The notes under the pieces were generated by a model. That model saw only the letters and a program-made list of their open reading frames with translations. It ran no database searches and was not told the DNA's origin. Below, piece by piece: positions 10,664 through 46,690 of a stretch of DNA of 64,000 bases. Numbering within the stretch: the stretch's first letter is position 1; every line of letters begins with the position of its first letter. The position numbers and the translations under genes were made by a program. The stretch spans positions 1,866 through 65,865 of the forward strand of contig JBDRYS010000001.1 of the NCBI GenBank assembly GCA_039803545.1, read 5' to 3'. This stretch comes from a candidate division WOR-3 bacterium. Lineage in GTDB: Bacteria > Hydrothermota > Hydrothermia > UBA1063.

Positions 10664-13141
10664 TCAGTTGGGGTAGTAACTCCAGAGGTCGACTTCTGCC
10701 AAGGCGTTTTTAAAATCTTCGTATTTGCTTAAAAGAGAGTTCCTTATGTGCCCAATTTCACTGTTTTTTATGTTCTTTGTAATCTCGTAAAAAGCCAAAG
10801 CATTGAGGGCATTCATACTGACTAACTCCTTAATCTCTTTTGTGTCTGCTTGGTAATTATCATTTTGTAGCATTTTGAGTAGTATCTCAAATAGCCTCTT
10901 CCGTGTGAAAATATATTCGCTCTTCGTCTCAACTGCTTCCAGAAGGGTTCTGGCCTCATCAACCTCATTGTTTTTCAAAAGATTTTGAATTAATGCAAGC
11001 AACATCAAATTGGCTTTGTAAATATTCCCTCTCTTTTTTTCGTTGTTAATCTCTTGTTTTGTAAAGATTAGGCCCTCTTTTGTAGAACCAGACTTGACCT
11101 GCAAAAGCCCAAGGTAAAAACGGTAGGGGTAGTTCGTTTTGGGGTTTATGTTTAGAATATCATCGATTGAAAACCTTATAAAGCTTTCAGCACTACGCGG
11201 TGGCAGTAGGTAGAGGTATATTTTCCCTATCTCTTCGAGCAATGTTTCTTTTAAGTGCTTGTTTTTGATTTCATTCAGCGACCACAACACGTTTTCGATG
11301 TGGGTTAGTGCATCGTGGAATTTAAAAGCGAGGAGCAACATTTCCGCCAATTTTAATTCGAGGAATGTCGTTTTTTCTATACTTTTGGATGCCTTCAGAG
11401 CCTTCGTGTAATATTCTATAGCTTTGCTAATTTTGTTTTTGTAAAATTCACAATCGCCCAAGGTTTCAAAAATATTTACCTTTCCATTTTGAAAAGGGCC
11501 ACTAGACTTAGATTTGAATTTTTCAAGAACCATCTGAGTGTTGCATTCAAGTTTATCTGCGTTGTAATCAATTTTGAGTTTAAGCAATAGTAGTTCCTTT
11601 GATAGCCTTTTTTGTTGTGCAAGATATTCCTTGAGAAATCTTGAGACAGTCTTCGTTTCTCCAAGCTCAGTTAAAAGTTCAATTACTTTTGGAATTAATC
11701 GCTTTTGTTCCTTTGCCTCTGTTTTAAGGCCGTTAATGTAGTCAAGTGCCTTTTGGTACTCACCCATGCTAATAAAAAGATTTATAATGGTTTCGTTTAT
11801 GGATGTTTTTTGCCTTTTTGTTTTTGCAAATAATTTTGCTTTTTTTGCATGTTGATATGCTTTCTCGTATTGTTCTTTCTTTAATTCTTCGTTTATGGCC
11901 TCGTAATAGAATTTAAAGGCGTTTTTGTAATCTCCCGAAAGTTCGAAGTGCCTTGCTATTTCCCAGGTAGCAACTGGAAAACCGTTCATTTTTTTAGTAT
12001 GAAGTAACTGGGCATAATGGCCGTGGATTTTTTTAACTTCTCTCTCAGGTAAATTCAGGAGAGGATGAAATTCTACGACCGGATGGTTAGAGTGAATTTT
12101 GTTCTTTATTATTCTAATAATTCCTTTGCTGCTTAAATTTTCGATAATTTTTTCTATGTTTTGAGTTTTTACTTTTGGAAATAGTTTTATGAGGTCTATA
12201 TTGTCCACCGGCCCTGCGGAAGATAGAATTACATAAGTTACTAATTTTTCGTCTTTGCTCATTGATTCGAAAAATTTTTGCGATTTTTCAGGGTAATATT
12301 CTTCATAGGGAAACTCTGAATTCTCGTTTAAAACCCAACCCGAGTTCTCGTCCCATCTAAAAAAGTTCTTAGAGTTGAGGACTTTTAATATCCAGATGAG
12401 TTTCGAATAACTCTTCATACTTCGGTAGTAAAGAAGTTCTAAAATCTCCCGATTAACATTGGGACTTATGAAGAAAGACTGTAAGGTCTTCTGGACATCT
12501 TCGATGGTTATTGAGTCTATTTTAATGGAGGAATTGGGGTCGCTTATGAGTCTGATTTTTTTGAATCCTTTTTCGTTCCGTATTGTTAAAAAATTCCCCT
12601 TTTCTTCTTCAGCAAGGGTTACTTTGCCATTTGTAAATATCTGTATAGCCTCCACTGCAAGGAATGGATTTTCTTCAGGTAAATCAACAAAAATCTCCTT
12701 ATTATCCGAATCTATTAATTCCGCAACCTTTTTGTAACCTTCAATATTTGGAATATGGAGATGCCTCCTGTTATTGCTAATTTTTTCGTAAAACTTTTGA
12801 AACAGAAGGGCAGGAGGGCTTTCAAACTTTTTCAAGTTAAGAGTTGCGCTGTTTAGTTTTCCTCTTAGAAACTTTTTGTAGATTTCCTGTTGCCTCAATT
12901 TCATTAAAAAACTTTTAGGATCTCTTGTCAATATAAGAAGTGAGGAATTGCTGAAGATGAAAATAGCTTCCTTTCCTGAAGATGTGCTGACTTGCATTAA
13001 AGGTTTAAGGAGCTCGGCTGTTCCAATGAGTGGGTATTCTAAGTAGAGAAGGTGGACATGAGAATCTTTTGTTGAAAAGTGGGCTAAGTGAGTTAAAAAA
13101 TCAAAAAAATTAAAAGCCAATGCAAAATCAGGGTTTTCCAT
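10664..13141 (-). CDS. Large TPR-repeat protein with a degenerate STAND-NTPase-like N-terminal region; hypothetical regulator
   Basis: 825 aa, K/E-rich helical repeats in the C-terminal two thirds; no intact Walker A was found. Ends 3 nt upstream of the dprA start, so it is probably co-transcribed. Confidence 0.45.
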   Translation of the reverse strand: MENPDFALAFNFFDFLTHLAHFSTKDSHVHLLYLEYPLIGTAELLKPLMQVSTSSGKEAIFIFSNSSLLILTRDPKSFLMKLRQQEIYKKFLRGKLNSATLNLKKFESPPALLFQKFYEKISNNRRHLHIPNIEGYKKVAELIDSDNKEIFVDLPEENPFLAVEAIQIFTNGKVTLAEEEKGNFLTIRNEKGFKKIRLISDPNSSIKIDSITIEDVQKTLQSFFISPNVNREILELLYYRSMKSYSKLIWILKVLNSKNFFRWDENSGWVLNENSEFPYEEYYPEKSQKFFESMSKDEKLVTYVILSSAGPVDNIDLIKLFPKVKTQNIEKIIENLSSKGIIRIIKNKIHSNHPVVEFHPLLNLPEREVKKIHGHYAQLLHTKKMNGFPVATWEIARHFELSGDYKNAFKFYYEAINEELKKEQYEKAYQHAKKAKLFAKTKRQKTSINETIINLFISMGEYQKALDYINGLKTEAKEQKRLIPKVIELLTELGETKTVSRFLKEYLAQQKRLSKELLLLKLKIDYNADKLECNTQMVLEKFKSKSSGPFQNGKVNIFETLGDCEFYKNKISKAIEYYTKALKASKSIEKTTFLELKLAEMLLLAFKFHDALTHIENVLWSLNEIKNKHLKETLLEEIGKIYLYLLPPRSAESFIRFSIDDILNINPKTNYPYRFYLGLLQVKSGSTKEGLIFTKQEINNEKKRGNIYKANLMLLALIQNLLKNNEVDEARTLLEAVETKSEYIFTRKRLFEILLKMLQNDNYQADTKEIKELVSMNALNALAFYEITKNIKNSEIGHIRNSLLSKYEDFKNALAEVDLWSYYPN

Positions 13142-13196
13142 TTGCTAAAAGGATAAATCTTTTCCTGTAATCTTTCAAACGGACGGATTTTTAAGG

Positions 13197-13232
13197 CTTC
13201 GACAAAATTTTCCATTTCGACAATTTTGTCGA
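13197..13232 (+). promoter_or_regulatory. Putative enhancer-binding-protein (UAS) site: perfect 7-2-7 palindrome TCGACAATTTTGTCGA (13217-13232) plus upstream half-site TCGACAAAATTTT
   Basis: Seen directly in sequence, about 45 bp upstream of a sigma-54 -24 element. The motif resembles the palindrome at 32432-32450. Confidence 0.5.
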
Positions 13233-13274
13233 GAATGGACAAGGAAGATGCCTTTGAAGAACTAAAAAAGTGTT

Positions 13275-13290
13275 TGGCACAAAATTTGCA
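13275..13290 (+). promoter_or_regulatory. Sigma-54 (RpoN) -24/-12 promoter TGGCACaaaatTTGCA upstream of the 13324 gene
   Basis: Exact match to the TGGCAC-N5-TTGCA consensus, about 33 nt before the ATG, with RBS AGGAGG at 13312-13317. Confidence 0.6.
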
Positions 13291-13323
13291 GAATAATTTT
13301 TAGCACAAAACAGGAGGTGCGAA

Positions 13324-13884
13324 ATGAGGTACACCAACATAATAAAAATAGCATGGCTCCCTCTCCTTCTGGGCTTGGCCTTTGCCCAGGAGAATACAGG
13401 TACACAAAAGGACTCAACAAACAATTACCGCTACCGGGAACAGTACAGGTATCAGGAACACGTCAGGAATCAAGGGGATACGATTAAGGTAATGTCGGGT
13501 GAGAGGATAATGAATCAGGGGGATACGATACAAATTCGGACTACGAAATCTGTTAAAAATCCTGCAGTACAGAGTGAAATGACCGTTGAAAAAACTATAT
13601 CCAAAGATGGAAACACTCTCATTCAGATTGAAAAAACAGTTATCACGCCAAAGGATACTATTACCATTCAAAAGGAAGTGGGTTCAGCGAGCAGAGATAC
13701 TGTGAGGACAAGGGAACGCCAGAGGATAAGGAACGATTCTGGTTGTGATGGAACTCCAGACACGTTAAGGATTAGGGAAAGAGAACACTTGAGATTAAGG
13801 GATGGTAGCTCCTCAGGAAGCGAAGGAATTGGGACTGGTTTAGGATCCGGCGCGACGCAGAGAAGAAGTAGAAGAAGTAATTAA
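13324..13884 (+). CDS. Secreted low-complexity protein (signal peptide; NQGDTI repeats; R/E-rich tail), unknown function
   Basis: N-terminal signal peptide (WLPLLLGLAFAQ), internal short repeats, followed by a strong terminator. Confidence 0.5.
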   Translation: MRYTNIIKIAWLPLLLGLAFAQENTGTQKDSTNNYRYREQYRYQEHVRNQGDTIKVMSGERIMNQGDTIQIRTTKSVKNPAVQSEMTVEKTISKDGNTLIQIEKTVITPKDTITIQKEVGSASRDTVRTRERQRIRNDSGCDGTPDTLRIREREHLRLRDGSSSGSEGIGTGLGSGATQRRSRRSN

Positions 13885-13897
13885 TAGCCAACTCTTT

Positions 13898-13941
13898 GGG
13901 GCGCACACGGTCAAAGACCGTGTGCGCCCCCTTATAATTTT
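13898..13941 (+). terminator. Rho-independent terminator (15-bp GC-rich stem GGGGCGCACACGGTC/GACCGTGTGCGCCCC, loop AAA, T-rich tail)
   Basis: Perfect inverted repeat seen directly, 14 nt after the stop codon of the 13324-13884 gene. Confidence 0.8.
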
Positions 13942-13955
13942 AACAGGAGGTTCAA

Positions 13956-14999
13956 ATGTTAATTTTCATATTGTTTCAGTTAACTCAGCTAAACCTTAGT
14001 TTCCATAGGGGATTCGATACGAATTTGATGCTGGACACCAGTTATCTTCATGATTATTACAACGGGCTGGATCTTACCTTTGGTCACTACCCCATTGAGA
14101 AACCATGGGGATATGAATTGGCTCTTGGTGGTAGCTTTTTTGACAATTACACAAGCATGAACTTTTTAACTTTTCGTGGCAACCTGTCTTATTTTAAGGA
14201 TTTTGGAGAAGCGGGAAACTACATGGAAAGCGGGGTCGATTTTACATGGGATGTTATATCACCGTACAAATCTTTAACTATAACGCCCGGTGTTGCATCT
14301 AAAATTTATCTTGGGGAAAAGAAGATGTTTAATATTATCCCGAGCTGGGATTTAAATCTCTTGTTAGCTGACGAAAGTTATAATTTCGACAATATTCCAA
14401 AATTGAGGCTTAATGGCAATTTCTTTGGAATTTCAGCGGCACTAACAGGGATGTTAAAATGGAGGTACGGTGCAACCTATGTTGTCTCTTCAACAGGGAT
14501 AGGATATTCGCCTTACGCGGCCCGTTATACCTGGGTTACAAAAAGTCTTTCTGCGGGAAATGCCGGTATCAGATTGGGAAAAAGGTTTGGTGGCCTTCTG
14601 GGTATATTCTATGAATTTGATTATCACTTTTTGCCCACCAGCAACTTAGTAAGTGTGGATAATCTAAAACAAAGGCTTGATCCACTTAACGAGGAAGAGT
14701 TTGCGTACAGTGGAATTTCCAATACCTTTAATGTAAGTTTAATAGTTAGCAAGGTAGCAATTGATTATACCTTTGCGTTGAGTTCTAAGGATTATAGTAT
14801 TGTCGATACTACCCAATCACCTGTTTCACGCCATGACAATGTGTTGGTTCACAGCATTACTGGCAGTATTTCCCTTTTTAAAAAGAGATTTGAGGTTGGT
14901 TTATCCGGCTTTTTCCGTTACGAATCCAATACCTCAACAATGCAAGGATTTTCCTATACACGAAAAGAGGGTGGCGTTGGGCTTTATATGGGCTTATAG
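13956..14999 (+). CDS. Hypothetical outer-membrane beta-barrel-like protein
   Basis: Alternating hydrophobic/aromatic beta-strand-like pattern, rich in G/Y/S/T; no catalytic motif identified. Confidence 0.4.
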   Translation: MLIFILFQLTQLNLSFHRGFDTNLMLDTSYLHDYYNGLDLTFGHYPIEKPWGYELALGGSFFDNYTSMNFLTFRGNLSYFKDFGEAGNYMESGVDFTWDVISPYKSLTITPGVASKIYLGEKKMFNIIPSWDLNLLLADESYNFDNIPKLRLNGNFFGISAALTGMLKWRYGATYVVSSTGIGYSPYAARYTWVTKSLSAGNAGIRLGKRFGGLLGIFYEFDYHFLPTSNLVSVDNLKQRLDPLNEEEFAYSGISNTFNVSLIVSKVAIDYTFALSSKDYSIVDTTQSPVSRHDNVLVHSITGSISLFKKRFEVGLSGFFRYESNTSTMQGFSYTRKEGGVGLYMGL

Positions 15000-15002
15000 G
15001 AG

Positions 15003-15434
15003 GTGTTTATGCACTTTTTGCTTTTAGTTGTTTTAACGGTGATCCCAAAGTATTTTTACAATGTTAGTGATACTGCAACGGTTAAGGGAGAAGTACTCAG
15101 TGTTGAAAGGGAGCAGATAGAAGGAAGTGAAGTTTATCATGTTGTGTTATCTTTTAAAAGCGTTGACACCACTTTAAAAGTGGTATTGGGACCAGCCTGG
15201 TTCATTGAGGAGATACCGAGGAGAGGTGATTCCTGTGTGGTAAGTGGGTCTGTTTTTAGGACAGAAAATGGAATATACTTAATCGCGAGAAAACTGTTTA
15301 ACAGCAGAACAAAGACCTCTATGTCACTGAGGACAGAAAGTGGATTTCCTCTCTGGTATAGACAAAGAGCTTCTGAAAGGTTTATGGATCGGGCTGAAGG
15401 GGGGCAGAATAGGCAGAGGCAAAGGCAAAGGTAA
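15003..15434 (+). CDS. Small secreted/periplasmic hypothetical protein (possible OB-fold), immediately upstream of the sensor kinase
   Basis: N-terminal hydrophobic signal-like segment; C-terminal QNRQRQRQR tail; start abuts the histidine kinase gene. Confidence 0.4.
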   Translation: MFMHFLLLVVLTVIPKYFYNVSDTATVKGEVLSVEREQIEGSEVYHVVLSFKSVDTTLKVVLGPAWFIEEIPRRGDSCVVSGSVFRTENGIYLIARKLFNSRTKTSMSLRTESGFPLWYRQRASERFMDRAEGGQNRQRQRQR

Positions 15435-15437
15435 TTA

Positions 15438-16667
15438 ATGAATTTTAGAAAACTTGTTCTTGTTTTCTTCATTGATATTGTGTTAGTAGTTTCTTTTTTC
15501 GTCTATTTAGTCCAAGAACAGCAAAGGATTTTTAGGGAAGAAAGCAAAAGAGACGCTCAACTTCGATCTGTGCTTGTACGCCAGATGTTTTCCCACCTGG
15601 TAAAGAGTGGAAAAGAAATAGACGACTCACTCTTGAAAGTTGTAGTAGATTCTACAAACCTTGATTATGTTGCCCTCCTGGGAGGAAGAAAACTTCTTCA
15701 CTGGGCTTCGAAATATGAAGGTTTTTTACCCGTCGAGAGTTTTGAAGAGATAAAACCGGGTCGAGTGAGGTTGATTAAACTTCCAGATTATTCGATAGTC
15801 GAATTTTCTTTTTATTTAGATTCCACTATAGTTGTTTGTGGCTTTTCCGATGAACCTTTTTCCAAATTAACGAGGATCACTGTGTATGGTATGGCATTTT
15901 TAGTGGTAGTGTTGTTGATAATATTCGGCATTACTACGTTTTCCTTTTATTTTTTAAATCGGAAGCTCAAAGAGAGGGAGCTGGTCCTCGTCAAAGAGGA
16001 AGAAAAGGCAAAGTATTTCAGGGAACTTGCAGGATTTTCAAGCCAGGTTGCTCATGAGATAAAGAACCCTTTAAATTCAATAAGTATGGCTATACAGCTT
16101 GCCAAACAGAAAGGTTTGTCAGGAGATTTGCTGAAAATTATAGAAGATGAAACAAACAGGTTAAATTCGATAGTTAAACGCTTTTCTTCTGTTTCCAAAG
16201 GGATAGAGATGCACTTGGAAGAGGTAGATTTGACGAAAGTGGTAAGTGATGTTATCACTGATGCAAAGGTCTTTGCCACGGCATATGGGGTTAAAATAGA
16301 ATTTAATGCAAATGGGTTTTCTCAAAAGGTTAAAACGGACCCCTTATTGCTAAAACAGGCTCTTTTTAATATAATTAAAAATGCCATCGAGGCCTTTGAA
16401 GGAGTTTTTAGAGAAGAGAAAGTGGTAAAAGTCAACCTCAAAAAAGAAAAAAGGAAGGTTATTATATCCATTGAAGATAATGGTTCGGGAATGACTGATG
16501 AGGAGGTAAAGAGGGCCTTTGACTTATTTTACTCGACCAAATCTCAGGGTATGGGACTGGGTTTAAGTGTGGTGCGAAGAATTATGGATGCCCTTGGTGG
16601 AGAAGTCAGGTTGGTGAGCAAGAAAGGCGAAGGGACGAAGGTGGAGTTAATTCTTACCCATGGCTGA
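15438..16667 (+). CDS. Sensor histidine kinase (two TM helices flanking an extracytoplasmic sensor region; HisKA + HATPase_c)
   Basis: H-box FSSQVAHEIKNPLNSI; N/G boxes IIKNAIEAF, IEDNGSGM, GMGLGLSVV. Confidence 0.85.
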   Translation: MNFRKLVLVFFIDIVLVVSFFVYLVQEQQRIFREESKRDAQLRSVLVRQMFSHLVKSGKEIDDSLLKVVVDSTNLDYVALLGGRKLLHWASKYEGFLPVESFEEIKPGRVRLIKLPDYSIVEFSFYLDSTIVVCGFSDEPFSKLTRITVYGMAFLVVVLLIIFGITTFSFYFLNRKLKERELVLVKEEEKAKYFRELAGFSSQVAHEIKNPLNSISMAIQLAKQKGLSGDLLKIIEDETNRLNSIVKRFSSVSKGIEMHLEEVDLTKVVSDVITDAKVFATAYGVKIEFNANGFSQKVKTDPLLLKQALFNIIKNAIEAFEGVFREEKVVKVNLKKEKRKVIISIEDNGSGMTDEEVKRAFDLFYSTKSQGMGLGLSVVRRIMDALGGEVRLVSKKGEGTKVELILTHG

Positions 16668-18039
16668 GGAATATACAATTTTAGTCGTCGAAGACGAAGA
16701 AAATGCGCGTAAACTCCTTCTGGAATATTTAGGGAATAACGGATATAAAGTTTTTGGCTGTGCCACCGGCGAGGAGGCACTTCAATTTTGCAGGGAAAAT
16801 TTTGTCGATTTTGCACTGCTCGATATAAGGCTACCCGGAGTGAGCGGGATAGATCTCATTCCAAAGCTTAAGGAAACAAATCCCCTTATAAAGGTCATAA
16901 TGGTTACTGCCCTTGGTGATGTAGATTTGGTTGTAAGGGCTATGTCTATGGGCGCTTCAGATTACGTGGTTAAACCCGTAAACCTTGAAAAACTGTTAGC
17001 AAAAATCGAGGAGATAAAGCCCAAACATATTGAGGAAGTGGAATTAAAGGCTATCAAAGATATCTCTGAACTTCACCTCCCTGAGTTTGTATACGCATCT
17101 GACAAGATGAAGAAAGTGCTTTATTATGTAGTGAGAGCAGCCCGATCCAATGCGCCCTGTTTGATAACAGGTGAAACGGGTACAGGAAAGACTGCCCTTG
17201 CACGAATTATCCATTCCCTTTCTTCGAGGAGAGACGGCCCCTTTGTGGATGTTCATTTACAATCTATACCTGAGACCCTCATTGAAAGTGAACTTTTCGG
17301 ATATGAAAAGGGAGCCTTTACCGGTGCCGATAAGAGCTACGAGGGGCTTATAGTAAGGGCTCAAGGAGGCACCCTTTTCCTTGATGAAATCGGGGAGCTC
17401 AAAAGAGAAATGCAGGTAAAATTGCTTAAGGTGATTGAAGAAAAAATGGTTAGACCGGTAGGTGGAACGCAGCCCAAAAAGGTGGATTTTCGTTTAATTA
17501 CTGCAACTAACAGGGATATTAAAAAAGAAGTCAAACAGGGCACTTTTCGAGAGGATCTTTACTATCGAATCAATGTGATTGAAATTGCTGTTCCACCCCT
17601 AAGGGAGCGGAGGGAGGATATTCCTGTTTTATTGGATTATTTTCTCAAGAAATACAGTAAATCAGAAGGAAAAGAAATAAAGGGCTTTTCAAAGGAGGCG
17701 CTAAAATACCTTTTAAGGTATCACTACCCTGGCAATGTTAGAGAGTTGAGCAATATTGTGGAGAGAGCAACCGTAATGGCTACCAAAAACGTAATAGACG
17801 TGAGTGATTTACCTGAAGAAGTTGTGAGAAGTAGTGCTGCTCATAGCAAATTTGTTTCAGGCGGTGTAACTACTTTGCCAGAGGTCTTAAAGGAGATCGA
17901 AAAGAATATGATCCTTGAAGCTCTAAAGGAGGAAAATTTTGTAAAATTAAGGGCAGCGAAGAAACTTGGGATTTCAGAACGTGTTCTAAGGTATAAAATG
18001 AAGTTATATGGAATTGAAGATGGAAAGGGCGATAGTTAA
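16660..18039 (+). CDS. Sigma-54-dependent response regulator (NtrC family: receiver + AAA+ sigma-54 activator + Fis-type HTH)
   Basis: Receiver (LLDIRLPGVSGIDL), Walker A GETGTGKT, GAFTGA sigma-54 contact motif, ESELFGYEKGAFTGA, C-terminal HTH (KLRAAKKLGISERVLRYKMK). Confidence 0.9.
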   Translation: MAEEYTILVVEDEENARKLLLEYLGNNGYKVFGCATGEEALQFCRENFVDFALLDIRLPGVSGIDLIPKLKETNPLIKVIMVTALGDVDLVVRAMSMGASDYVVKPVNLEKLLAKIEEIKPKHIEEVELKAIKDISELHLPEFVYASDKMKKVLYYVVRAARSNAPCLITGETGTGKTALARIIHSLSSRRDGPFVDVHLQSIPETLIESELFGYEKGAFTGADKSYEGLIVRAQGGTLFLDEIGELKREMQVKLLKVIEEKMVRPVGGTQPKKVDFRLITATNRDIKKEVKQGTFREDLYYRINVIEIAVPPLRERREDIPVLLDYFLKKYSKSEGKEIKGFSKEALKYLLRYHYPGNVRELSNIVERATVMATKNVIDVSDLPEEVVRSSAAHSKFVSGGVTTLPEVLKEIEKNMILEALKEENFVKLRAAKKLGISERVLRYKMKLYGIEDGKGDS

Positions 18040-23070: not shown

Positions 23071-24195
23071 ATGGAAGGTAGGGTCTTAGTTGTAGATCCT
23101 GATACAAAGGTAGCAAGAGAAATTCAGGATGCCCTTGGTGACATAGGTCTGACAGTCTACACTGCAGGGTCCTACGATGAGGCGCAATCTTTTTTAAGTT
23201 TCTACAAAATTGATTACATGATCATGGACCTTATATTACCGGACAAGAATGGAATCGACCTTTTGATTTATACAAAGCAGCTCAATCCTTCCATCAAGGT
23301 TTATGTCTATACAGATGTAAAGGGTGCTACTATAGAGCGTTCGGTTCTCAAAAAGGGTGCTGATGCTTTCATTAACAAGACTGGCAATTTCAGAGAGGAT
23401 TTTAAAAATATATTCTTTGCTCCTCCGAAAGAAGAACCAAGGGAGCAGGTTGAGGCCGTCGAGGGATTTAAGGGCACCGTCACAGGAGTGGACATTATCG
23501 ATATGGTTCAGGCCCTCGCCCTTATGGGTAAATCCGTTATGCTAAGCTGTAGGGATTTGAAAACTCGGAAAGAGGGAGTAATTGTTTTTAAAAATGGGGA
23601 GATTGTAGATGCTAAAACTGGTTCTAAGCGAGGAGAGGAAGCTCTTTTTGAAATTTTGAGTTGGAAAGACGGGGTTTTTGAAACTAAAAAATATACAGAA
23701 GAGCCTGAGAGGACAATTAATGCACCGGTGGATTTGTTGCTTTTAAATTTTGCCCGTCTTAGAGATGAAGCAATGGAGGAGAAAGCTGGAGTATCTTCCC
23801 TCACGCTTAATGACGTTGTCAGGTTCTTTCATGCAGAAATTCCAGGTTTTATTGCTGGTATGGTCTTTGACTACGAGGAAGCTACTCCTATCGCCTTTGA
23901 TACAATTCTTCCTGGAAAAACTTTTCAGGCTTCTGCAACTTTATACGGAGCCATTTTAAAGGCTGCCCAGGAAGCAATGGAGATAGTGACAGAGGGAAAA
24001 GAGAAGCGGGAGGAGCTCTCGGAAATTATTATCACTGATAAGAATGATCACGTGGTACTTTTCCCGCTTCCAGTAAACAATTTTGCCGTTTTTATCCTTG
24101 TATCGAGGGACACACCTATTCAGGAAGTGCGCTCTGTAGTTTTAAAGTATATTCCTGATATCATCAGGTTGCTTAAAGAGGAAAAGATTTCTTAA
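23071..24195 (+). CDS. Response-regulator receiver + DUF4388 + C-terminal roadblock/LC7-like domain protein
   Basis: Receiver (D at MIMDLILPD, K at FINK), then GTVTGVDIIDMVQALALMGKSVMLS...GEEALFEILSWKDGVFE (DUF4388 signature), then a roughly 110-aa alpha/beta C-terminal region. Confidence 0.65.
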   Translation: MEGRVLVVDPDTKVAREIQDALGDIGLTVYTAGSYDEAQSFLSFYKIDYMIMDLILPDKNGIDLLIYTKQLNPSIKVYVYTDVKGATIERSVLKKGADAFINKTGNFREDFKNIFFAPPKEEPREQVEAVEGFKGTVTGVDIIDMVQALALMGKSVMLSCRDLKTRKEGVIVFKNGEIVDAKTGSKRGEEALFEILSWKDGVFETKKYTEEPERTINAPVDLLLLNFARLRDEAMEEKAGVSSLTLNDVVRFFHAEIPGFIAGMVFDYEEATPIAFDTILPGKTFQASATLYGAILKAAQEAMEIVTEGKEKREELSEIIITDKNDHVVLFPLPVNNFAVFILVSRDTPIQEVRSVVLKYIPDIIRLLKEEKIS

Positions 24196-24196
24196 A

Positions 24197-25048
24197 GTGG
24201 TCCTCCCTTTTGATGCAAAGATTGTCGAAATTCTCAAAAAGAAAGGTATCTCCTTAGAGACCCTTTTGGAAGGGTATCTTCGCGGAAGACACAGGAGCCC
24301 CTTTTATGGCCATAGCCTGGAATTTAAAGACCTCAGACCTTATGAAAAGGGTGACGATTTAAAGTTCATCGATTGGAGACTCTACGGAAGGAGTGAAAAA
24401 TTTTTTGTAAAAAAGTTTGAAGAGGAAACCAATGTTAGAGTTTTTATCGCTCTCGATATTTCTCGTTCTATGTCTCTATATGATAAAGGAAAGATGGCGA
24501 GGGGTGTCGCGGCGGCGATTGCCCTTTTGTCTTACTACTCGAGGGACGCCATTGGCCTTTATCTTTTTAACGAAGGAGAAGTTTTCTTCTTGCCTCCTTC
24601 AACCACCTATAAAAATCTATTCCTTCTTCTTGAAAGCCTTGATAAATTCGAGGATTCTGGGAGGACCAATTTTGTTTTAGCGATGCTTGGCCTCGATGAG
24701 AGGGTTAGGAAGAGAAGTCTACTGGTGGTAATATCCGATTTTTTGAGTGAGATTGAAAGTATAAAAAAGTTCGTGAGGTTTTTTAAGGGCAAAGGGCATG
24801 AAATTATACCTTTGATAGTTTCATCTCAACGGGAAAAAAGTTTGTCAATGCACGAGGCGAGATTAAAAGATATTGAGACAGGCTATGAGCTCAGTTTGAG
24901 TAGAGTCGAGAGTTTTCGATATGGAGAAATGATCAATCAGCATTATACCGAGCTTAAAGTTCTCTTAAGAAATTTCGGCATCCCTTTTTTTGAATTCCAG
25001 GCGGAGATGGATTTAACATTGCAATTAAGGAGCTTTTTGGAAGGATGA
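24197..25048 (+). CDS. DUF58 (vWA-like, MoxR-associated) protein
   Basis: GHSLEFKDLRPYEKGDDLKFIDWRLYGRSEKFFVKKFEEE followed by the DxSxS-like VFIALDISRSM MIDAS motif. Confidence 0.75.
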   Translation: MVLPFDAKIVEILKKKGISLETLLEGYLRGRHRSPFYGHSLEFKDLRPYEKGDDLKFIDWRLYGRSEKFFVKKFEEETNVRVFIALDISRSMSLYDKGKMARGVAAAIALLSYYSRDAIGLYLFNEGEVFFLPPSTTYKNLFLLLESLDKFEDSGRTNFVLAMLGLDERVRKRSLLVVISDFLSEIESIKKFVRFFKGKGHEIIPLIVSSQREKSLSMHEARLKDIETGYELSLSRVESFRYGEMINQHYTELKVLLRNFGIPFFEFQAEMDLTLQLRSFLEG

Positions 25049-26460
25049 ACTTCCTGAGCCCGGTTTTTTTGTATTTTTTGCCACTTTCCCTTCTACCCCT
25101 AATTTCACTTTTTCTTAAAAAACGTAGTTCAAGAATTAAGTTCGTCTCCTGGCTCTTTTTACTAAAAGATAGTGAATTTGCCAGGAAAAGAAAATTTCAT
25201 AGAAACTTGATCATTATCTTAAGGTGTCTCATTTTGGCGCTTCTACTAATTTTTTTGGCAAAGCCCATACCTTCTCGGTATGCCTTTAGGAAGATTTATT
25301 TTGAGACGGGTATTTTTTCCCAAAAAGCAGAGGCAAAGAACCGTAAATATTTGCGCTCCCTAATGGGTTATTTTGGGGGGAGGGTGGATGCCTTTTGTGA
25401 TCCTCTGAAGCCAGAACAGAAACTAAATGGGAAAATTTATATAGTATCTGACTTTTCTGATCCTGGCATATATCAACGATTTTCGGGTGGTTTTTACTTT
25501 GATACCCTTTCGATATCAAATGCAGGGATAAATTCCGTAAATTTTGACCCGGTGAGCAAAGCTTACTACTTGAAAATTACCAATTACAACAAGAAGGACT
25601 CGGTTTTTCATATCGTAGTTTATATGAACTCCAGAAAACTTTCGGAAAGTAGTTTTATTCTACCTAAGACTAAAACAATTTTGTGGAAACAAGAGATACC
25701 TGAAGGTGGAAGGCTTCTTAAGATTTGCCTTATGCCAGAGGATGACATTTTACTGGATAACTGCCTTGAACTCTCAGCCCCTGAGAAACTGAAATATTAC
25801 CTCGCTTCTCTCAACCTCTGTGTAGAAAACTTTATGCAAATTGTTGGAATCAAAACCTCTTTGGACAGTGCTGACGTTCTAATATCCTTTAACAGGGTTC
25901 TTAAGCCTGGAAAAAAGACAAAGGAAGTCATAATATTTTTTGATAAGCCCGTGGAAGGTATAAAATCGGTAATTGACGATTCCTTAAAGGAGTCGGGTCC
26001 TTTTAAAATTTCGGGGTGGAACTTTGGAAAAGTTTTTTTGTCAGATACCTCAAAAGGTTTTACCGATGTTAGAAGTTTCTTACAGAGAGCCACTCTTAAG
26101 TTAAACTTAAATGGAGTTACGTATGTGTTCGTCGGCCTTGTTCCGGACATTGAGAAAAACGATGCAGTATATTGCCCGGATTTCTGGAGTTACTTCTTGC
26201 AACTACTAAATATTAAGCCTGTAATAGCTTATACTACTACAAAAGAAAGGGCAGGGAAAATTTTGAACGATACGCTGTTTTTGCCTGACACTTTACAGAC
26301 AAATACTTCTCGAGCTCAGGAAGTTAGCTTGAGTTCCCACTATTTGCCTCTTCCGGAAGTAGTCAAAACGGTTAACACAATAAGGTATTTAATATTGGGC
26401 CTTTTAATTTTGCTTGTAGCCTTGGAGTTTTACTTAACCTTCAGGTATTTCTTTGATTGA
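25045..26460 (+). CDS. Membrane protein with BatA-type N-terminal double-TM domain (aerotolerance-operon-like), large soluble region and C-terminal TM
   Basis: MNFLSPVFLYFLPLSLLPLISLFLKKR...WLFLLKD matches the N-terminal double-transmembrane domain of BatA/BatB-like proteins; C-terminal hydrophobic anchor. Confidence 0.55.
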   Translation: MNFLSPVFLYFLPLSLLPLISLFLKKRSSRIKFVSWLFLLKDSEFARKRKFHRNLIIILRCLILALLLIFLAKPIPSRYAFRKIYFETGIFSQKAEAKNRKYLRSLMGYFGGRVDAFCDPLKPEQKLNGKIYIVSDFSDPGIYQRFSGGFYFDTLSISNAGINSVNFDPVSKAYYLKITNYNKKDSVFHIVVYMNSRKLSESSFILPKTKTILWKQEIPEGGRLLKICLMPEDDILLDNCLELSAPEKLKYYLASLNLCVENFMQIVGIKTSLDSADVLISFNRVLKPGKKTKEVIIFFDKPVEGIKSVIDDSLKESGPFKISGWNFGKVFLSDTSKGFTDVRSFLQRATLKLNLNGVTYVFVGLVPDIEKNDAVYCPDFWSYFLQLLNIKPVIAYTTTKERAGKILNDTLFLPDTLQTNTSRAQEVSLSSHYLPLPEVVKTVNTIRYLILGLLILLVALEFYLTFRYFFD

Positions 26461-32431: not shown

Positions 32432-32481
32432 TTGCACAATTTTTGTGCAATATAGATCCCTTTTGCATAATTTTTGTTCAA
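32432..32481 (+). promoter_or_regulatory. Tandem putative enhancer (UAS) sites: perfect palindrome TTGCACAATTTTTGTGCAA (32432-32450) and degenerate copy TTTGCATAATTTTTGTTCAA (32462-32481)
   Basis: Inverted repeat seen directly, 50-80 bp upstream of a sigma-54 promoter. Confidence 0.55.
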
Positions 32482-32497
32482 AAGCACCTTTTACTTT

Positions 32498-32513
32498 TGG
32501 CACACTTTTTGCA
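32498..32513 (+). promoter_or_regulatory. Sigma-54 (RpoN) -24/-12 promoter TGGCACactttTTGCA upstream of the 32537 operon
   Basis: Exact TGGCAC-N5-TTGCA consensus, 24 nt before the ATG; RBS AAGGAGG at 32524-32530. Confidence 0.6.
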
Positions 32514-35715: not shown

Positions 35716-36438
35716 TATCGCTAATAAAAGCGTGTAGATCCCGAAATAGTAGATCTTTTTCATTTTCACGATTTTTCGAAGTATAGTAAGACTTCCAAGT
35801 CCCGTTAGGAAGGCACTCAAAAAGGGTAGAATTAAAGTACTTAAGTCTTTAGCTGCAAACTCTTTTAGGTTCAGAAGAAATGCCCCCCCAATGGCAGGGA
35901 TAGACAATAAAAAAGAAAAGGAGAAGGCGGTTTGTGGAACTATTCCAAAGAGGAGGGCGGCACTCACGGTGCTTCCCGAGCGGGAAACCCCTGGCAAGAT
36001 GGCAATTGCCTGGGCAATGCCGATTATAAATGCGGTGAGAGGCGTAATAATCTCCTTATCAAATTTTTTTCTTAAGGTGGTAGAGAGCAAAATAAAACTG
36101 TTGAGGATGAAGAAATACGGAAGATATTCGACGGTTTCGAAATAGGTTTCAATCTTATCTTTAAACAGGATACCTACAAATCCTGCCGGAATAGAGCCGA
36201 TAAAAAGCAAAAAAATTGGGTGACGAATAAGTTTTTCTCTTACAAAAAGTTTCTTGATGTCGTTCCAGAAGAATAAAAGTACCGCAAAGAGCGTAGCAAG
36301 GTGCAAGGTGAGTTCCAGTTCAATGCCCGGTTTCTCAATTCCCAAGAGTTTTTGCGCTAATACAAGGTGTCCTGAACTGGAGATGGGTAAAAATTCAGTG
36401 ATCCCCTGGATTACGCCAATTAGAAAGTTTTTCATCAA
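35692..36438 (-). CDS. uppP: Undecaprenyl-diphosphate phosphatase
   Basis: GITEFLPISSSGHL and PGVSRSG motifs; polytopic membrane protein. Confidence 0.9.
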   Translation of the reverse strand: MMKNFLIGVIQGITEFLPISSSGHLVLAQKLLGIEKPGIELELTLHLATLFAVLLFFWNDIKKLFVREKLIRHPIFLLFIGSIPAGFVGILFKDKIETYFETVEYLPYFFILNSFILLSTTLRKKFDKEIITPLTAFIIGIAQAIAILPGVSRSGSTVSAALLFGIVPQTAFSFSFLLSIPAIGGAFLLNLKEFAAKDLSTLILPFLSAFLTGLGSLTILRKIVKMKKIYYFGIYTLLLAISILLFLH

Positions 36439-45878: not shown

Positions 45879-46690
45879 TACTCTTCCCTCTTCAACTTAA
45901 AGTAATGGGATTCGTCGGGGAATTTCTTTGCTTTTACCTCTTCCCTGAAGGCCTTTAGCCCTTCTACGCCTTCCCGATAAAGTTCTCTGTATGCCTTAGC
46001 GAAGGATGGCCTGAAGTCGGGGTAAAGACCGAGCAAATCGTGGAAAACAAGAACTTGACCATCGCAATAGGGTCCTGCTCCTATGCCAATGGTGGGAACT
46101 CTAACAGAATCTGTCACCATTTTTGCTGCCTCAGCAGGTACCATTTCGAGGACGATGGAAAACACCCCCGCTTCTTCCAAAATTTTTGCGTTTTCAAGTA
46201 GACGCTCTATCTCTTTTTCCGTTTTTGCCTGCAGTTTGTATCCCCCGTAGGAGTGAACATGTTGGGGCGTCATACCGAGATGACCCATTACAGGTATGCC
46301 ATAGTCGGTTAGTTTTTTCACAAGCTCTGCCACTTCCCTTCCTCCTTCTATTTTAACGGCCTCGGCGCCCGCTTTGATCAAAAGGCCGGCGTTTCTTATA
46401 GCTTCAGCCTCGCTAACCTGATAGGAAAGGAAGGGCATGTCAGCAATCAAAAAGGCGTTTTTAACGCCCTTTTTTACTATTTTAGTGTGATAAATTACAT
46501 CATCGATGGTGCAAGGTAGAGTGTTCTCATTTCCTTGAATCACCATGGAAAGGGAATCGCCGACGAGGATGGCGTCTACGCCAGCCTCGTCGGCCATCCT
46601 TGCCGAAACGTAGTCGTAAGCAGTTACCATTACTATGGGTTCTTTCCGTTCTTTTAGCTTGAAGAAGTCAACTATCGTAAATTTTTTCAT
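45878..46690 (-). CDS. panB: 3-methyl-2-oxobutanoate hydroxymethyltransferase
   Basis: [18 protein letters not shown] motifs. Confidence 0.9.

What the first reader, a model, noticed from the sequence alone, without database searches (positions are those of the whole stretch)
13197..13323. Second sigma-54 promoter with a related ACAA-TT-TTGT palindrome, indicating a shared regulon
TGGCACaaaatTTGCA at 13275-13290 again matches the sigma-54 consensus perfectly. It is preceded by a perfect 7-2-7 palindrome TCGACAATTTTGTCGA and an extra half-site. The core of this palindrome (ACAA-Tn-TTGT with flanking C/G) parallels the one at 32432, so both promoters are probably served by the same activator. 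The downstream gene (13324-13884) encodes a secreted repeat-containing low-complexity protein, which makes this a candidate uncharacterised envelope-stress or surface-remodelling regulon. The same region also contains the divergent promoter for the TPR-protein/dprA operon.
Basis: seen in the sequence. Interest (0 to 1): 0.65.

Follow-up and report, generated by a model that had tools for sequence, protein, structure and literature searches.

The report
Self-regulated sigma-54 operon promoter and enhancer
This is a real sigma-54 promoter with a conserved upstream activator-binding palindrome, and it most likely drives an operon that encodes its own sensor kinase and activator; this is an ordinary type of bacterial control circuit, and it does not share its activator with the second promoter at 32498.

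Summary
TGGCACAAAATTTGCA (13275-13290), the perfect palindrome TCGACAATTTTGTCGA (13217-13232) and an imperfect upstream copy (13199-13214) are all present. Chance predicts about 0.02-0.05 and 0.0003 exact matches per 64 kb.

The promoter heads a five-gene operon: a small secreted protein, a 347-aa all-beta protein, a MamS/MamX-like OB protein, a histidine kinase and an NtrC-type sigma-54 activator. In orthologous WOR-3/Hydrothermia loci (activator identity down to 58%), only the palindrome half-sites, the distal half-site and the -24/-12 elements stay invariant.

The same palindrome-promoter pair sits beside distant activators that share the recognition helix LGISERxLRYK. One of these was chosen by protein similarity, not by DNA pattern. 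So the palindrome is most likely the enhancer for the activator encoded in the operon (positive autoregulation).

The "shared regulon" reading is not supported. The 32433 site is a different motif (TGCACA-N5-TGTGCA, one base longer, NtrC-box geometry). It is conserved separately, and it stays intact in two relatives that have lost the operon at its usual position.

Verdict: a new member of a known kind, of moderate interest.

The parts
13199..13214 (.). Distal, imperfect activator site TCGACAAAATTTTCCA. The left half-site is perfect and the right half is degenerate. Its centre is about -94.5 from the predicted start site.
   Evidence: A left half-site (T)CGACAA is kept 17-20 bp upstream of the palindrome start in orthologues L001, L005, L010, L012 and L014. 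It is seen in 12 of 23 distinct sigma-54-like metagenome loci against 1 of 16 chance-like hits.
13217..13232 (.). Proximal perfect palindrome TCGACAA-TT-TTGTCGA, the predicted main enhancer (UAS). Its centre is about -76.5.
   Evidence: All 14 half-site bases are invariant in 6 distinct orthologous upstream regions, and only the central dinucleotide changes (TT or AA) (alignment A1). Expected by chance 0.0003 per 64 kb.
13275..13290 (+). Sigma-54 (-24/-12) promoter TGGCAC-aaaat-TTGCA. GG is at 13276-77 and GC at 13288-89. The predicted start site is about 13301 (inferred).
   Evidence: TTTGGCA and TTTGC are invariant in orthologues. The gap from the palindrome is 39-43 nt in all orthologues.
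13312..13317 (+). Ribosome-binding site AGGAGG, 6 nt before the ATG at 13324.
   Evidence: GGAGG is conserved in the orthologues.
13324..13884 (+). p186: a small secreted repeat protein with a signal peptide, NQGDTI x2 and RxRERxRIR / RLRDG motifs. No Pfam or NCBIfam family matches.
   Evidence: Orthologues of 178-199 aa carry conserved DENGDGIPD and RLRDGSC motifs.
13898..13930 (+). GC-rich hairpin of 15 pairs followed by CTTATAATTT. It looks like a terminator or attenuator between p186 and the rest of the operon.
   Evidence: dG -34.8 kcal/mol, z -5.8. The hairpin is kept with different stem sequences in L005, L010, L012 and L014.
13956..14999 (+). p347: a conserved hypothetical protein predicted to be all-beta. 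An outer-membrane barrel is possible but not shown.
   Evidence: Homologues in L018/L054 and L042 sit in the same operon position, by length and order; one search shows homology only among those loci, not to the window p347. The AlphaFold model is unusable (pLDDT 31).
15003..15434 (+). p143: a membrane-anchored OB-like protein. Its orthologues hit Pfam MamS_MamX (PF26390).
   Evidence: BLASTP links it to the first gene of the distant operons in L042, L054 and L021.
15438..16667 (+). Sensor histidine kinase (HisKA + HATPase_c). It has two N-terminal hydrophobic segments flanking a stretch of about 130 aa that is presumably periplasmic.
   Evidence: The best NCBIfam matches are AtoS and ZraS, both far below their cut-offs.
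16660..18039 (+). NtrC-family response regulator and sigma-54 activator (receiver + AAA+ with GAFTGA + HTH_8). Its recognition helix is LGISERVLRYK. It is the predicted binder of the palindrome.
   Evidence: It is the only activator of this family found in the 64-kb window (tblastn).
32433..32513 (+). Comparator, not part of this system. It holds the B-type sites TGCACAATTTTTGTGCA (32433-49) and TGCATAATTTTTGTTCA (32464-80) and the second sigma-54 promoter (32498-32513), which drives a predicted lipoprotein with a weak, sub-threshold fibronectin type III match, a FecR/DUF6600 protein and a Big_7 protein.

Best explanation
The region 13199-13290 is the control region of a five-gene operon in a candidate division WOR-3 (Ca. 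Hydrothermia) bacterium. The genes are p186, p347, a MamS/MamX-like OB protein, a histidine kinase and an NtrC-type activator.

Proposed mechanism: RNA polymerase with sigma-54 sits on TGGCAC-N5-TTGCA as a closed complex. The kinase, whose sensing part is presumably periplasmic, phosphorylates the activator. Activator dimers then bind the perfect palindrome (centre about -76) and the adjacent imperfect site (centre about -94), assemble into an ATPase ring and open the promoter.

The main product is the small secreted protein p186. A conserved hairpin after p186 probably lets only part of the transcription continue into the kinase and activator genes, which would give positive autoregulation. 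All the products are envelope or secreted proteins, so the circuit most likely answers an envelope or periplasmic signal, possibly metal-related. It works much like ZraPSR in E. coli.

Shown: the sequence elements, their conservation, their linkage to this activator subfamily, and their helical phasing relative to the promoter. Inferred: binding by the activator encoded in the operon, the transcription start site, the attenuation, and the signal.
For: 1. Exact promoter and palindrome, far above chance.
2. Operon content: the kinase plus the only sigma-54 activator in the window, with an intact GAFTGA motif.
3. Phylogenetic footprint: in 6 distinct orthologous regions (activator identity 58-80%) only the 14 half-site bases, the distal left half-site, TTTGGCA/TTTGC and the ribosome-binding site and start codon are conserved; mean column identity is 56%. 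The palindrome-to-promoter gap is 39-43 nt.
4. The elements follow the operon, not the divergent TPR-like gene. In L006/L051 two chromate-transporter genes lie in between.
5. A metagenome scan for palindrome + N30-60 + TGGC-N7-TTGC gave 42 loci. Of these, 26 carry the fuller TGGCA[CT] form (about 1/8 expected). Those 26 are low in GC, have an AT centre and often a distal half-site. Their gaps cluster at 39-43, 49-52 and 57-60 nt (Rayleigh R about 0.65-0.74 at period 9.5-10.5), whereas the other 16 hits show no periodicity.
6. Distant operons (OB protein, p347-like protein, kinase, activator at 46% identity; L018/L054, L042) and activators next to the site (L032, L039) all carry the helix G-I-[SN]-E-R-x-L-R-Y-K. 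A GC-rich chance-like hit (L044) does not.
7. Independent test: activator P0065, picked by protein similarity only, has a perfect TCGACAAAATTGTCGA, a second half-conserved site and TGGCAGATAAATTGCC just downstream of its gene, ahead of an operon of a small protein, DUF2202, DUF4405 and a kinase.
8. In L002 the kinase and activator have decayed, and the palindrome and promoter have decayed with them.
9. Downstream genes in other lineages are all secreted or envelope proteins: CARDB, PKD, SH3_3/TPR, DUF2202, LTXXQ/Metal_resist and OB-like proteins with Cys-rich tails.
Against: - No binding or transcription data exist, and the start site is not mapped.
- rpoN was not found in the ORFs scanned by Pfam; part of the window was left unscanned, and the rest of the genome could not be searched.
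- The enhancer is close to the promoter (about -76 and -94), and the two sites are 18 bp apart here against 20-22 bp elsewhere.
- The recognition helix is common among database homologues, so helix-motif linkage rests on about 10 lineages. One homologue with a slightly different helix (P0077, SERAIRYK) has only a variant palindrome and a weak promoter.
- The hairpin could be a full terminator. The kinase and activator genes would then need another promoter, and autoregulation would be indirect.
- The signal and the function of the products are guesses. p186 and p347 have no family, and the p347 model failed.
Confidence: 0.75

Rival explanations
1. One reading: one activator serves both the 13275 and 32498 promoters through related ACAA-Tn-TTGT palindromes, forming one regulon.
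For: Both promoters are perfect sigma-54 consensus matches in one small genome of about 1.07 Mb. In the window the two left half-sites share 5 of 7 bases (TCGACAA against TGCACAA). Both drive secreted or envelope proteins. Only one activator gene is visible in the 64-kb window. In L004, which lacks operon A, the -12 element of promoter B reads TTGT rather than TTGC.
Against: The motifs differ in length (16 against 17 bp) and in their invariant outer bases (CGACA against GCACA). Each form has been kept unchanged with its own operon in every relative examined, including within one genome (L010/L058). L002 has lost the operon A activator (only relics remain) together with the A palindrome and promoter, yet it keeps a perfect B site and B promoter. 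L004 lacks operon A at its usual position and keeps both B sites. No A-type site lies near promoter B and no B-type site near promoter A in about 272 kb of related sequence.
Confidence: 0.08
2. The palindrome is an enhancer, but it is bound by a sigma-54 activator encoded elsewhere in the genome, not by the one in the operon. The operon would then be a target, not self-regulated.
For: The whole genome could not be searched. In several metagenome contigs the same palindrome and promoter precede genes with no activator nearby, so the factor does act in trans (L023, L024, L033, L052, L053).
Against: The palindrome sits next to an activator of the same subfamily with the same recognition helix in at least seven separate lineages, including one found by protein similarity alone. 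It decays together with the activator in L002. Trans targets are expected for any activator and do not argue against self-regulation.
Confidence: 0.1
3. The palindrome is an operator for a different kind of regulator, for example a repressor of the divergent TPR-like/dprA genes, and is unrelated to sigma-54 activation.
For: It lies in a 182-bp divergent intergenic region, 76 bp from the TPR-like gene's start codon. A weak sigma-70-like match lies at 13178-13150 on the minus strand.
Against: In L006/L051 the TPR-like gene is separated by two inserted genes, yet the palindrome keeps its 40-nt distance from the sigma-54 promoter. In unrelated lineages with other neighbours the palindrome keeps a roughly 10-bp phased distance from sigma-54 promoters. 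L002 and L004 keep the TPR-like and dprA genes without the palindrome.
Confidence: 0.04
4. A chance match with no function.
For: The region is AT-rich and short motifs are common. At one mismatch, the sigma-54 pattern count in the window (4) is only marginally above the shuffles (mean 1.05; 4 of 100 shuffles reach 4).
Against: Exact matches are expected at 0.02-0.05 (promoter) and 0.0003 (palindrome) per window. Both are invariant across orthologues that are otherwise diverged.
Confidence: 0.01

Closest known systems
ZraPSR (HydH/HydG) envelope-stress/zinc two-component system of E. coli and Salmonella
   Same: Both have a periplasm-sensing kinase and an NtrC-family sigma-54 activator. Both have dyad-symmetric activator sites roughly 75-100 bp upstream of perfect -24/-12 promoters. 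In both, the main induced product is a small periplasmic protein, and the kinase and activator genes are self-regulated. In one lineage carrying the A palindrome (L032) the target gene encodes an LTXXQ/Metal_resist (ZraP/Spy-like) protein.
   Different: The activator scores 363 bits against the ZraR model, whose cut-off is 760. The E. coli ZraR site is GAGTAAAAATGACTCGC in inverted repeat, a different sequence. The genes here run in one direction rather than divergently. p186 has no LTXXQ domain. The partner proteins (MamS/MamX-like OB protein, p347) have no counterpart in Zra.
NtrB/NtrC with tandem NtrC boxes at glnAp2 (TGCACC-N5-GGTGCA; from established knowledge)
   Same: The activator has the same domain architecture. 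Both use tandem dyad sites that support oligomerisation on DNA, both activate a sigma-54 promoter, and both regulate their own operon.
   Different: The score against the NtrC equivalog model is 378, below its cut-off of 559. Site A is one base shorter and has different half-sites. It is site B at 32433, not site A, that has NtrC-box geometry. There are no nitrogen-metabolism genes in the operon.
Aquifex aeolicus NtrC1 / NtrC4 (PDB 4L4U, 1NY5, 3DZD)
   Same: These are the closest solved relatives of the activator (E 6e-105 to 1e-84, full length). Both are from thermophiles and both are receiver-AAA+-HTH proteins.
   Different: Their DNA-binding helices differ: NtrC1 has GIPLRTLYRRLKEYGIE and 2M8G has GYTLRQLDYRIKKYGIE, against GISERVLRYKMKLYGIE here. 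No solved DNA-binding domain has the same helix.
Predicted DVUA0143 (NifA/VnfA-like) motif in Desulfovibrionales (Kazakov et al. 2015, PMC4641369)
   Same: The predicted sites there look like CGACA-N4-TGTCG, for example CGACATTTATGTCG and CGACGCTTTTGTCG (supplement file 4).
   Different: That regulator is a one-component protein with a different helix (GISHTALLDKMRRH) and nitrogenase targets. None of the D. vulgaris activators listed in that paper's DNA-binding-domain table has the GISER..LRYK helix. The resemblance is a lead only.

Membership tests
Sigma-54 (-24/-12) promoter | GG and GC dinucleotides exactly 10 nt apart within the TGGCAC-N5-TTGCW consensus | tested here: met
   TGGCACAAAATTTGCA at 13275-13290, 0 mismatches. 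About 0.02-0.05 exact matches are expected per 64 kb.
Sigma-54 (-24/-12) promoter | Intergenic position, correct orientation and a suitable distance to a gene start | tested here: met
   The -12 GC lies 35 nt upstream of the ATG at 13324, with AGGAGG in between.
Sigma-54 (-24/-12) promoter | Conservation of the -24/-12 elements in orthologous upstream regions | tested here: met
   TTTGGCA and TTTGC are invariant in 6 distinct orthologous regions.
Sigma-54 (-24/-12) promoter | The genome encodes sigma-54 (rpoN) and an activator with GAFTGA | tested here: inconclusive
   An activator with GAFTGA is present at 16660-18039.
Sigma-54 (-24/-12) promoter | Mapped transcription start and dependence on sigma-54 | not testable with these tools
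   This needs 5'-end mapping or in-vitro transcription.
NtrC-family enhancer (UAS) | Dyad-symmetric site or sites upstream of a sigma-54 promoter, usually two or more in tandem | tested here: met
   A perfect 16-bp palindrome lies 18 bp from an imperfect copy, with centres at about -76 and -94.
NtrC-family enhancer (UAS) | A cognate activator with a C-terminal Fis-type HTH, genetically linked to the site | tested here: met
   An HTH_8 activator is in the same operon. The linkage recurs in distant lineages and in one locus chosen by protein similarity only.
NtrC-family enhancer (UAS) | Position constrained relative to the promoter (face of the helix) | tested here: met
   Gaps cluster at 39-43, 49-52 and 57-60 nt in 23 distinct loci. 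The chance-like hits show no periodicity.
NtrC-family enhancer (UAS) | Demonstrated binding of the activator to the site | not testable with these tools
   This needs EMSA or footprinting.
ZraPSR system | The activator and kinase reach the ZraR and ZraS equivalog scores | tested here: not met
   ZraR 363 bits against a cut-off of 760; ZraS 142 against 479.
ZraPSR system | ZraR-type enhancer sequence | tested here: not met
   The E. coli zraP-zraS intergenic repeat is GAGTAAAAATGACTCGC / GCGAGTCATTTTTACTC, unlike TCGACAA-N2-TTGTCGA.
ZraPSR system | An LTXXQ periplasmic partner (ZraP) | tested here: not met
   p186, p347 and p143 have no LTXXQ hit. An LTXXQ protein is the target only in the unrelated locus L032.
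NtrC (nitrogen regulator NR-I) | NtrC equivalog score and an NtrC box TGCACC-N5-GGTGCA | tested here: not met
   TIGR01818 scores 378 against a cut-off of 559. Site A is 16 bp with CGACA half-sites.
Shared regulon with the promoter at 32498 | The same binding motif at both promoters | tested here: not met
   A is TCGACAA-N2-TTGTCGA and B is TGCACA-N5-TGTGCA. Each is conserved in its own form.
Shared regulon with the promoter at 32498 | Promoter B depends on the presence of the operon A activator | tested here: not met
   L002 (relics only) and L004 (operon absent at its usual position) both keep site B and its promoter. The whole genomes of these two could not be scanned for a second copy.

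The most novel reading that the evidence does not exclude
The palindrome TCGACAA-N2-TTGTCGA and the recognition helix LGISERxLRYK may define a previously undescribed subfamily of sigma-54 two-component systems that spans several phyla. Its core would be a MamS/MamX-like periplasmic OB protein, a p347-like beta protein, a kinase and an activator. It would control an envelope or surface programme, possibly metal-related. In some lineages that programme has expanded to batteries of CARDB/PKD surface proteins, DUF2202 proteins and ZraP/Spy-like proteins. The enhancer would be held at helically phased distances (about 40, 50 or 60 nt) from the promoter.
Probability: 0.45. Interest if true: 0.5.

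Novelty: new member of a known kind. Interest (0 to 1): 0.38.

Why it matters
It assigns a concrete, testable DNA site to an uncharacterised sigma-54 activator in an uncultivated thermophilic phylum (WOR-3/Hydrothermia, genome about 1.07 Mb). It also shows that the same site-helix pair recurs in other phyla in front of secreted envelope proteins. This could be used to predict regulons from metagenomes and to look for the signal sensed by the kinase and its MamS/MamX-like partner. It corrects the idea that the two perfect sigma-54 promoters in this window form one regulon: at least two activator specificities are at work. The circuit type itself, a self-regulated NtrC-family two-component operon, is textbook.

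Tried and rejected
- Exact look-up of the window's activator in the assembly index: not on record.
- AlphaFold model of p347 from a 5-sequence alignment: pLDDT 31, so it was unusable and no fold search was run.
- Pfam and NCBIfam on p186 and p347 at permissive thresholds: nothing credible.
- Rfam on 12900-14100: no match.
- Full-text search for the half-site strings: only irrelevant eukaryotic papers.
- E. coli ZraR site: fetched and compared, a different sequence.
- D. vulgaris sigma-54 regulome (PMC4641369): a similar-looking predicted motif belongs to a NifA-like regulator with a different helix, so it was rejected as the same family.
- Search for the activator of site B: none in the window and none next to the B operon in L058 or L059. 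It remains unidentified.
- Attempt to place the Ga0256835 contigs taxonomically through shared proteins: inconclusive.
- Internal sigma-70 promoter at the conserved TATAAT after the hairpin: the -35 match is poor (3 of 6 by eye) and the start would fall on the ribosome-binding site, so it is left unexplained.
- Locus L061: cut off before the operon start and could not be tested. Locus L062: only a variant palindrome and a weak promoter.
Full report
**Observation.** The sequence elements are exactly as reported.
- TGGCACAAAATTTGCA occupies 13275-13290 on the + strand, with GG at 13276-77, GC at 13288-89 and a 10-nt spacing.
- The perfect 7-2-7 palindrome TCGACAATTTTGTCGA occupies 13217-13232.
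- An imperfect copy, TCGACAAAATTTTCCA, occupies 13199-13214.
- Only two exact TGGCAC-N5-TTGCW matches exist in the 64 kb (13275 and 32498). Both are intergenic and face a downstream gene.
- Chance predicts about 0.045 exact matches (composition model) or 0.02 (300 Markov simulations, one reaching 2) for the promoter, and 0.0003 for the palindrome.
- Assuming the usual sigma-54 geometry, the start site is about 13301. That puts the two site centres near -76.5 and -94.5 (inference).

**Context.** The promoter heads a co-directional, tightly packed gene set:
- p186 (13324-13884) has a signal-peptide-like N-terminus, NQGDTI twice and RxRERxRIR/RLRDG motifs, and no family.
- p347 (13956-14999) has no family.
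- p143 (15003-15434) is OB-like, and its orthologues hit Pfam MamS_MamX.
- A HisKA/HATPase_c kinase (15438-16667) has two N-terminal hydrophobic segments around a stretch of about 130 aa that is presumably periplasmic.
- An NtrC-type activator (16660-18039) has a receiver domain, a Sigma54_activat domain with GAFTGA, and HTH_8.

This is the only sigma-54 activator detectable in the window (tblastn). The organism is a candidate division WOR-3 / Ca. Hydrothermia bacterium; a 100%-identical protein lies on a 1.07-Mb contig.

**Phylogenetic footprint.** I fetched the syntenic region from relatives. The five-gene operon, flanked by the divergent TPR-like/dprA genes and followed by a PUA-methyltransferase gene, recurs with activator identities of 80, 65, 61, 59 and 58%.
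- In the six distinct upstream regions, mean column identity is 56%.
- All 14 half-site bases of the palindrome are invariant. Only the central pair switches between TT and AA.
- A distal left half-site (T)CGACAA is kept 17-20 bp upstream.
- TTTGGCA and TTTGC of the promoter are invariant, and the palindrome-to-promoter gap stays at 39-43 nt.
- In L006/L051 two chromate-transporter genes separate the TPR-like gene from the operon, yet the palindrome and promoter stay with the operon at a 40-nt spacing.

This rules out chance. It also argues against a role as an operator for the divergent genes.

**Wider distribution.** I made one scan of JGI metagenomes for TCGACAANNTTGTCGA-N30-60-TGGC-N7-TTGC. 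It returned 42 loci.
- Twenty-six have the fuller TGGCA[CT]-N5-TTGC form, where about one in eight would be expected. These are low in GC (mean 0.41), have an A/T central pair, and in 12 of 23 distinct cases have a distal half-site.
- The other 16 are GC-rich (mean 0.56), have G/C centres, show a distal half-site once, and look like chance hits inside genes.
- The gaps of the 23 distinct sigma-54-like loci fall only at 39-43, 49-52 and 57-60 nt. Rayleigh R is about 0.65-0.74 for periods 9.5-10.5. The approximate p is below 1e-3 where the formula gave a value; at several periods it failed and returned negative numbers. The chance-like set shows no periodicity. This is the behaviour expected of an enhancer that must face the promoter.
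- Downstream genes in these loci all encode secreted or envelope proteins: CARDB Ig-like proteins (L023, L033, L052; L048, L050 and L053 by homology to these), PKD (L047), SH3_3+TPR (L024), a small RLRDGSC protein plus DUF2202 (L049), an LTXXQ/Metal_resist (ZraP/Spy-like) protein (L032) and OB proteins related to p143, some with Cys-rich tails (L021/L036, L018/L054, L042).
- L018/L054 and L042 carry a whole related operon: an OB protein, a protein in p347's position and of its size (similarity shown only among these loci, not to the window's p347), a kinase and an activator at 46% identity.

**Link to the activator.**
- Every activator encoded beside the palindrome has the recognition helix LGISERVLRYK or a near variant. 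This covers all WOR-3 orthologues, L042 and L054, L039 (GISERTLRYK) and L032 (GINERNLRYK).
- The activator beside a GC-rich chance-like hit (L044) has an unrelated helix.
- As an independent test I took database homologues selected by protein similarity alone.
  - P0065 (GISERVLRYR) has a perfect TCGACAAAATTGTCGA, a second half-conserved site and TGGCAGATAAATTGCC just after its gene, ahead of an operon of a small protein, DUF2202, DUF4405 and a kinase.
  - P0077 (SERAIRYK) has only a variant palindrome, TCGTCAAAATTGACGG, plus a TTGTCGA half-site and a weak promoter.
  - P0070's contig is cut off.
- In L002 (UBA1063) the kinase and activator survive only as decayed fragments. The palindrome is gone (best match has 4 mismatches) and so is the promoter.

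Together these make the activator encoded in the operon the most likely binder. The operon is therefore most likely positively self-regulated. Binding itself is inferred.

**Internal structure of the operon.** Immediately after the p186 stop codon lies a 15-pair GC-rich hairpin (13898-13930; -34.8 kcal/mol; z -5.8), followed by CTTATAATTT. Orthologues keep a hairpin at the same place with quite different stem sequences and a conserved T-rich/TATAAT tail. I read this as a terminator or attenuator that makes p186 the main output and lets a fraction of transcripts continue into the kinase and activator genes. The conserved TATAAT is unexplained.

**The second promoter.** The site at 32433-32449 is TGCACA-N5-TGTGCA: 17 bp, with half-site centres 10 bp apart, the geometry of the classical NtrC box (established knowledge). 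A weaker copy lies at 32464-32480, and the gap to TGGCAC is 48-50 nt.
- Site B is conserved in that form in front of the operon of a predicted lipoprotein (weak fibronectin type III match), a FecR/DUF6600 protein and a Big_7 protein in L001, L002, L004, L005 and L058.
- It is also conserved in the distant L059, where a single copy sits 18 nt from the promoter.
- Site A is 16 bp with CGACA half-sites 9 bp apart.
- Each motif has kept its own form with its own operon, even inside one genome (L010 and L058, GCA_017880035.1).
- No A-type site lies near promoter B, and no B-type site near promoter A, in about 272 kb of related sequence.
- L002, where operon A and its enhancer have decayed, keeps a perfect site B and promoter B. 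L004, which has no operon A at that position, keeps both B sites, although its -12 element reads TTGT.

So promoter B has a different activator, encoded outside the window and not identified here. The shared-regulon inference is not supported. One caveat is that I could not scan the complete L002 and L004 genomes for a second copy.

**Comparison with known systems.**
- The activator is a generic NtrC-family member. Its best NCBIfam hits are AtoC at 429 bits (cut-off 714), NtrC at 378 (559) and ZraR at 363 (760), so none is met.
- The closest solved structures are Aquifex NtrC1 and NtrC4 and then ZraR. No solved DNA-binding domain shares its helix.
- In function and layout it most resembles ZraPSR, but the E. 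coli ZraR site is a different sequence, and p186 is not an LTXXQ protein.
- A predicted motif for the NifA-like DVUA0143 in Desulfovibrionales looks similar (CGACA-N4-TGTCG). It belongs to a regulator with another architecture and helix, and none of the D. vulgaris activators listed in that paper's DNA-binding-domain table has the GISER..LRYK helix (PMC4641369).
- I found no description of this site-helix pair in the searches made, but those searches were limited.

**Verdict.**
- The mechanism is a standard self-regulated sigma-54 two-component circuit (confidence about 0.75 for the full model).
- The claimed link to the second promoter is not supported (about 0.08).
- Novelty: a new member of a known kind.
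- The recurrence across phyla of the enhancer, the helix and the envelope-protein targets is a useful, testable lead. It is not a surprise to specialists.

Noticed in passing
window 13898-13938: A 15-pair GC-rich hairpin sits directly after the p186 stop codon, followed by TTATAAT. Orthologues keep a hairpin with different stem sequences and the same T-rich/TATAAT tail. It is probably a terminator or attenuator inside the operon. The conserved TATAAT is unexplained.
   Followed up: partly
window 32433-32513; L001 19361, L002 19393, L004 19355, L005 18149, L058 7114, L059 7148: The second promoter's sites have NtrC-box geometry (TGCAC-N7-GTGCA). They are conserved with the operon of a predicted lipoprotein, a FecR/DUF6600 protein and a Big_7 protein. 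In the distant L059 a single palindrome lies only 18 nt upstream of TGGCATAAAGGTTGCT (centre about -52), unusually close for an enhancer. Its activator was not found.
   Followed up: partly
L002 2793-3356; L004 5750-5870: In UBA1063 the kinase and activator genes survive only as short decayed fragments between the TPR-like gene and the methyltransferase gene. The Kamchatka Hydrothermia MAG has no trace of the operon there. The operon is therefore dispensable and has been lost repeatedly.
   Followed up: partly
L006 1170-2406 (also L051): Two chromate-transporter genes are inserted between the TPR-like gene and the operon in one lineage.
   Followed up: no
window 13700-13884; L049 160-1186; L037 1497-1874: Small secreted proteins behind A-type promoters in unrelated lineages share C-terminal motifs: RLRDGSC, DENGDGIPD and CDGTGP-like. 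The window's p186 has degenerate versions. This may mark an unrecognised family of periplasmic proteins.
   Followed up: no
L023, L024, L033, L047, L050, L052, L053 (all metagenome Ga0256835): Seven contigs from one metagenome carry the same tandem-site + sigma-54 promoter design in front of CARDB, PKD or SH3 surface proteins, with no activator nearby. This suggests a multi-promoter regulon in some lineage or lineages. The taxonomy was not resolved.
   Followed up: partly
window 36302-36317 (-) and 46112-46127 (+): Two one-mismatch sigma-54-like matches lie inside ORFs, one of them antisense. They are probably chance.
   Followed up: no
window 23071-26460: A response regulator with a DUF4388/PatA_N domain sits next to DUF58/VWA and BatA-like genes (an aerotolerance-type cluster). 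It served as a good syntenic anchor across WOR-3 relatives.
   Followed up: no
window 805-3990 and 54534-59192: There is a 1061-aa Peptidase_C25 (gingipain-like) protein and an unannotated 1552-aa ORF. Neither was examined further.
   Followed up: no
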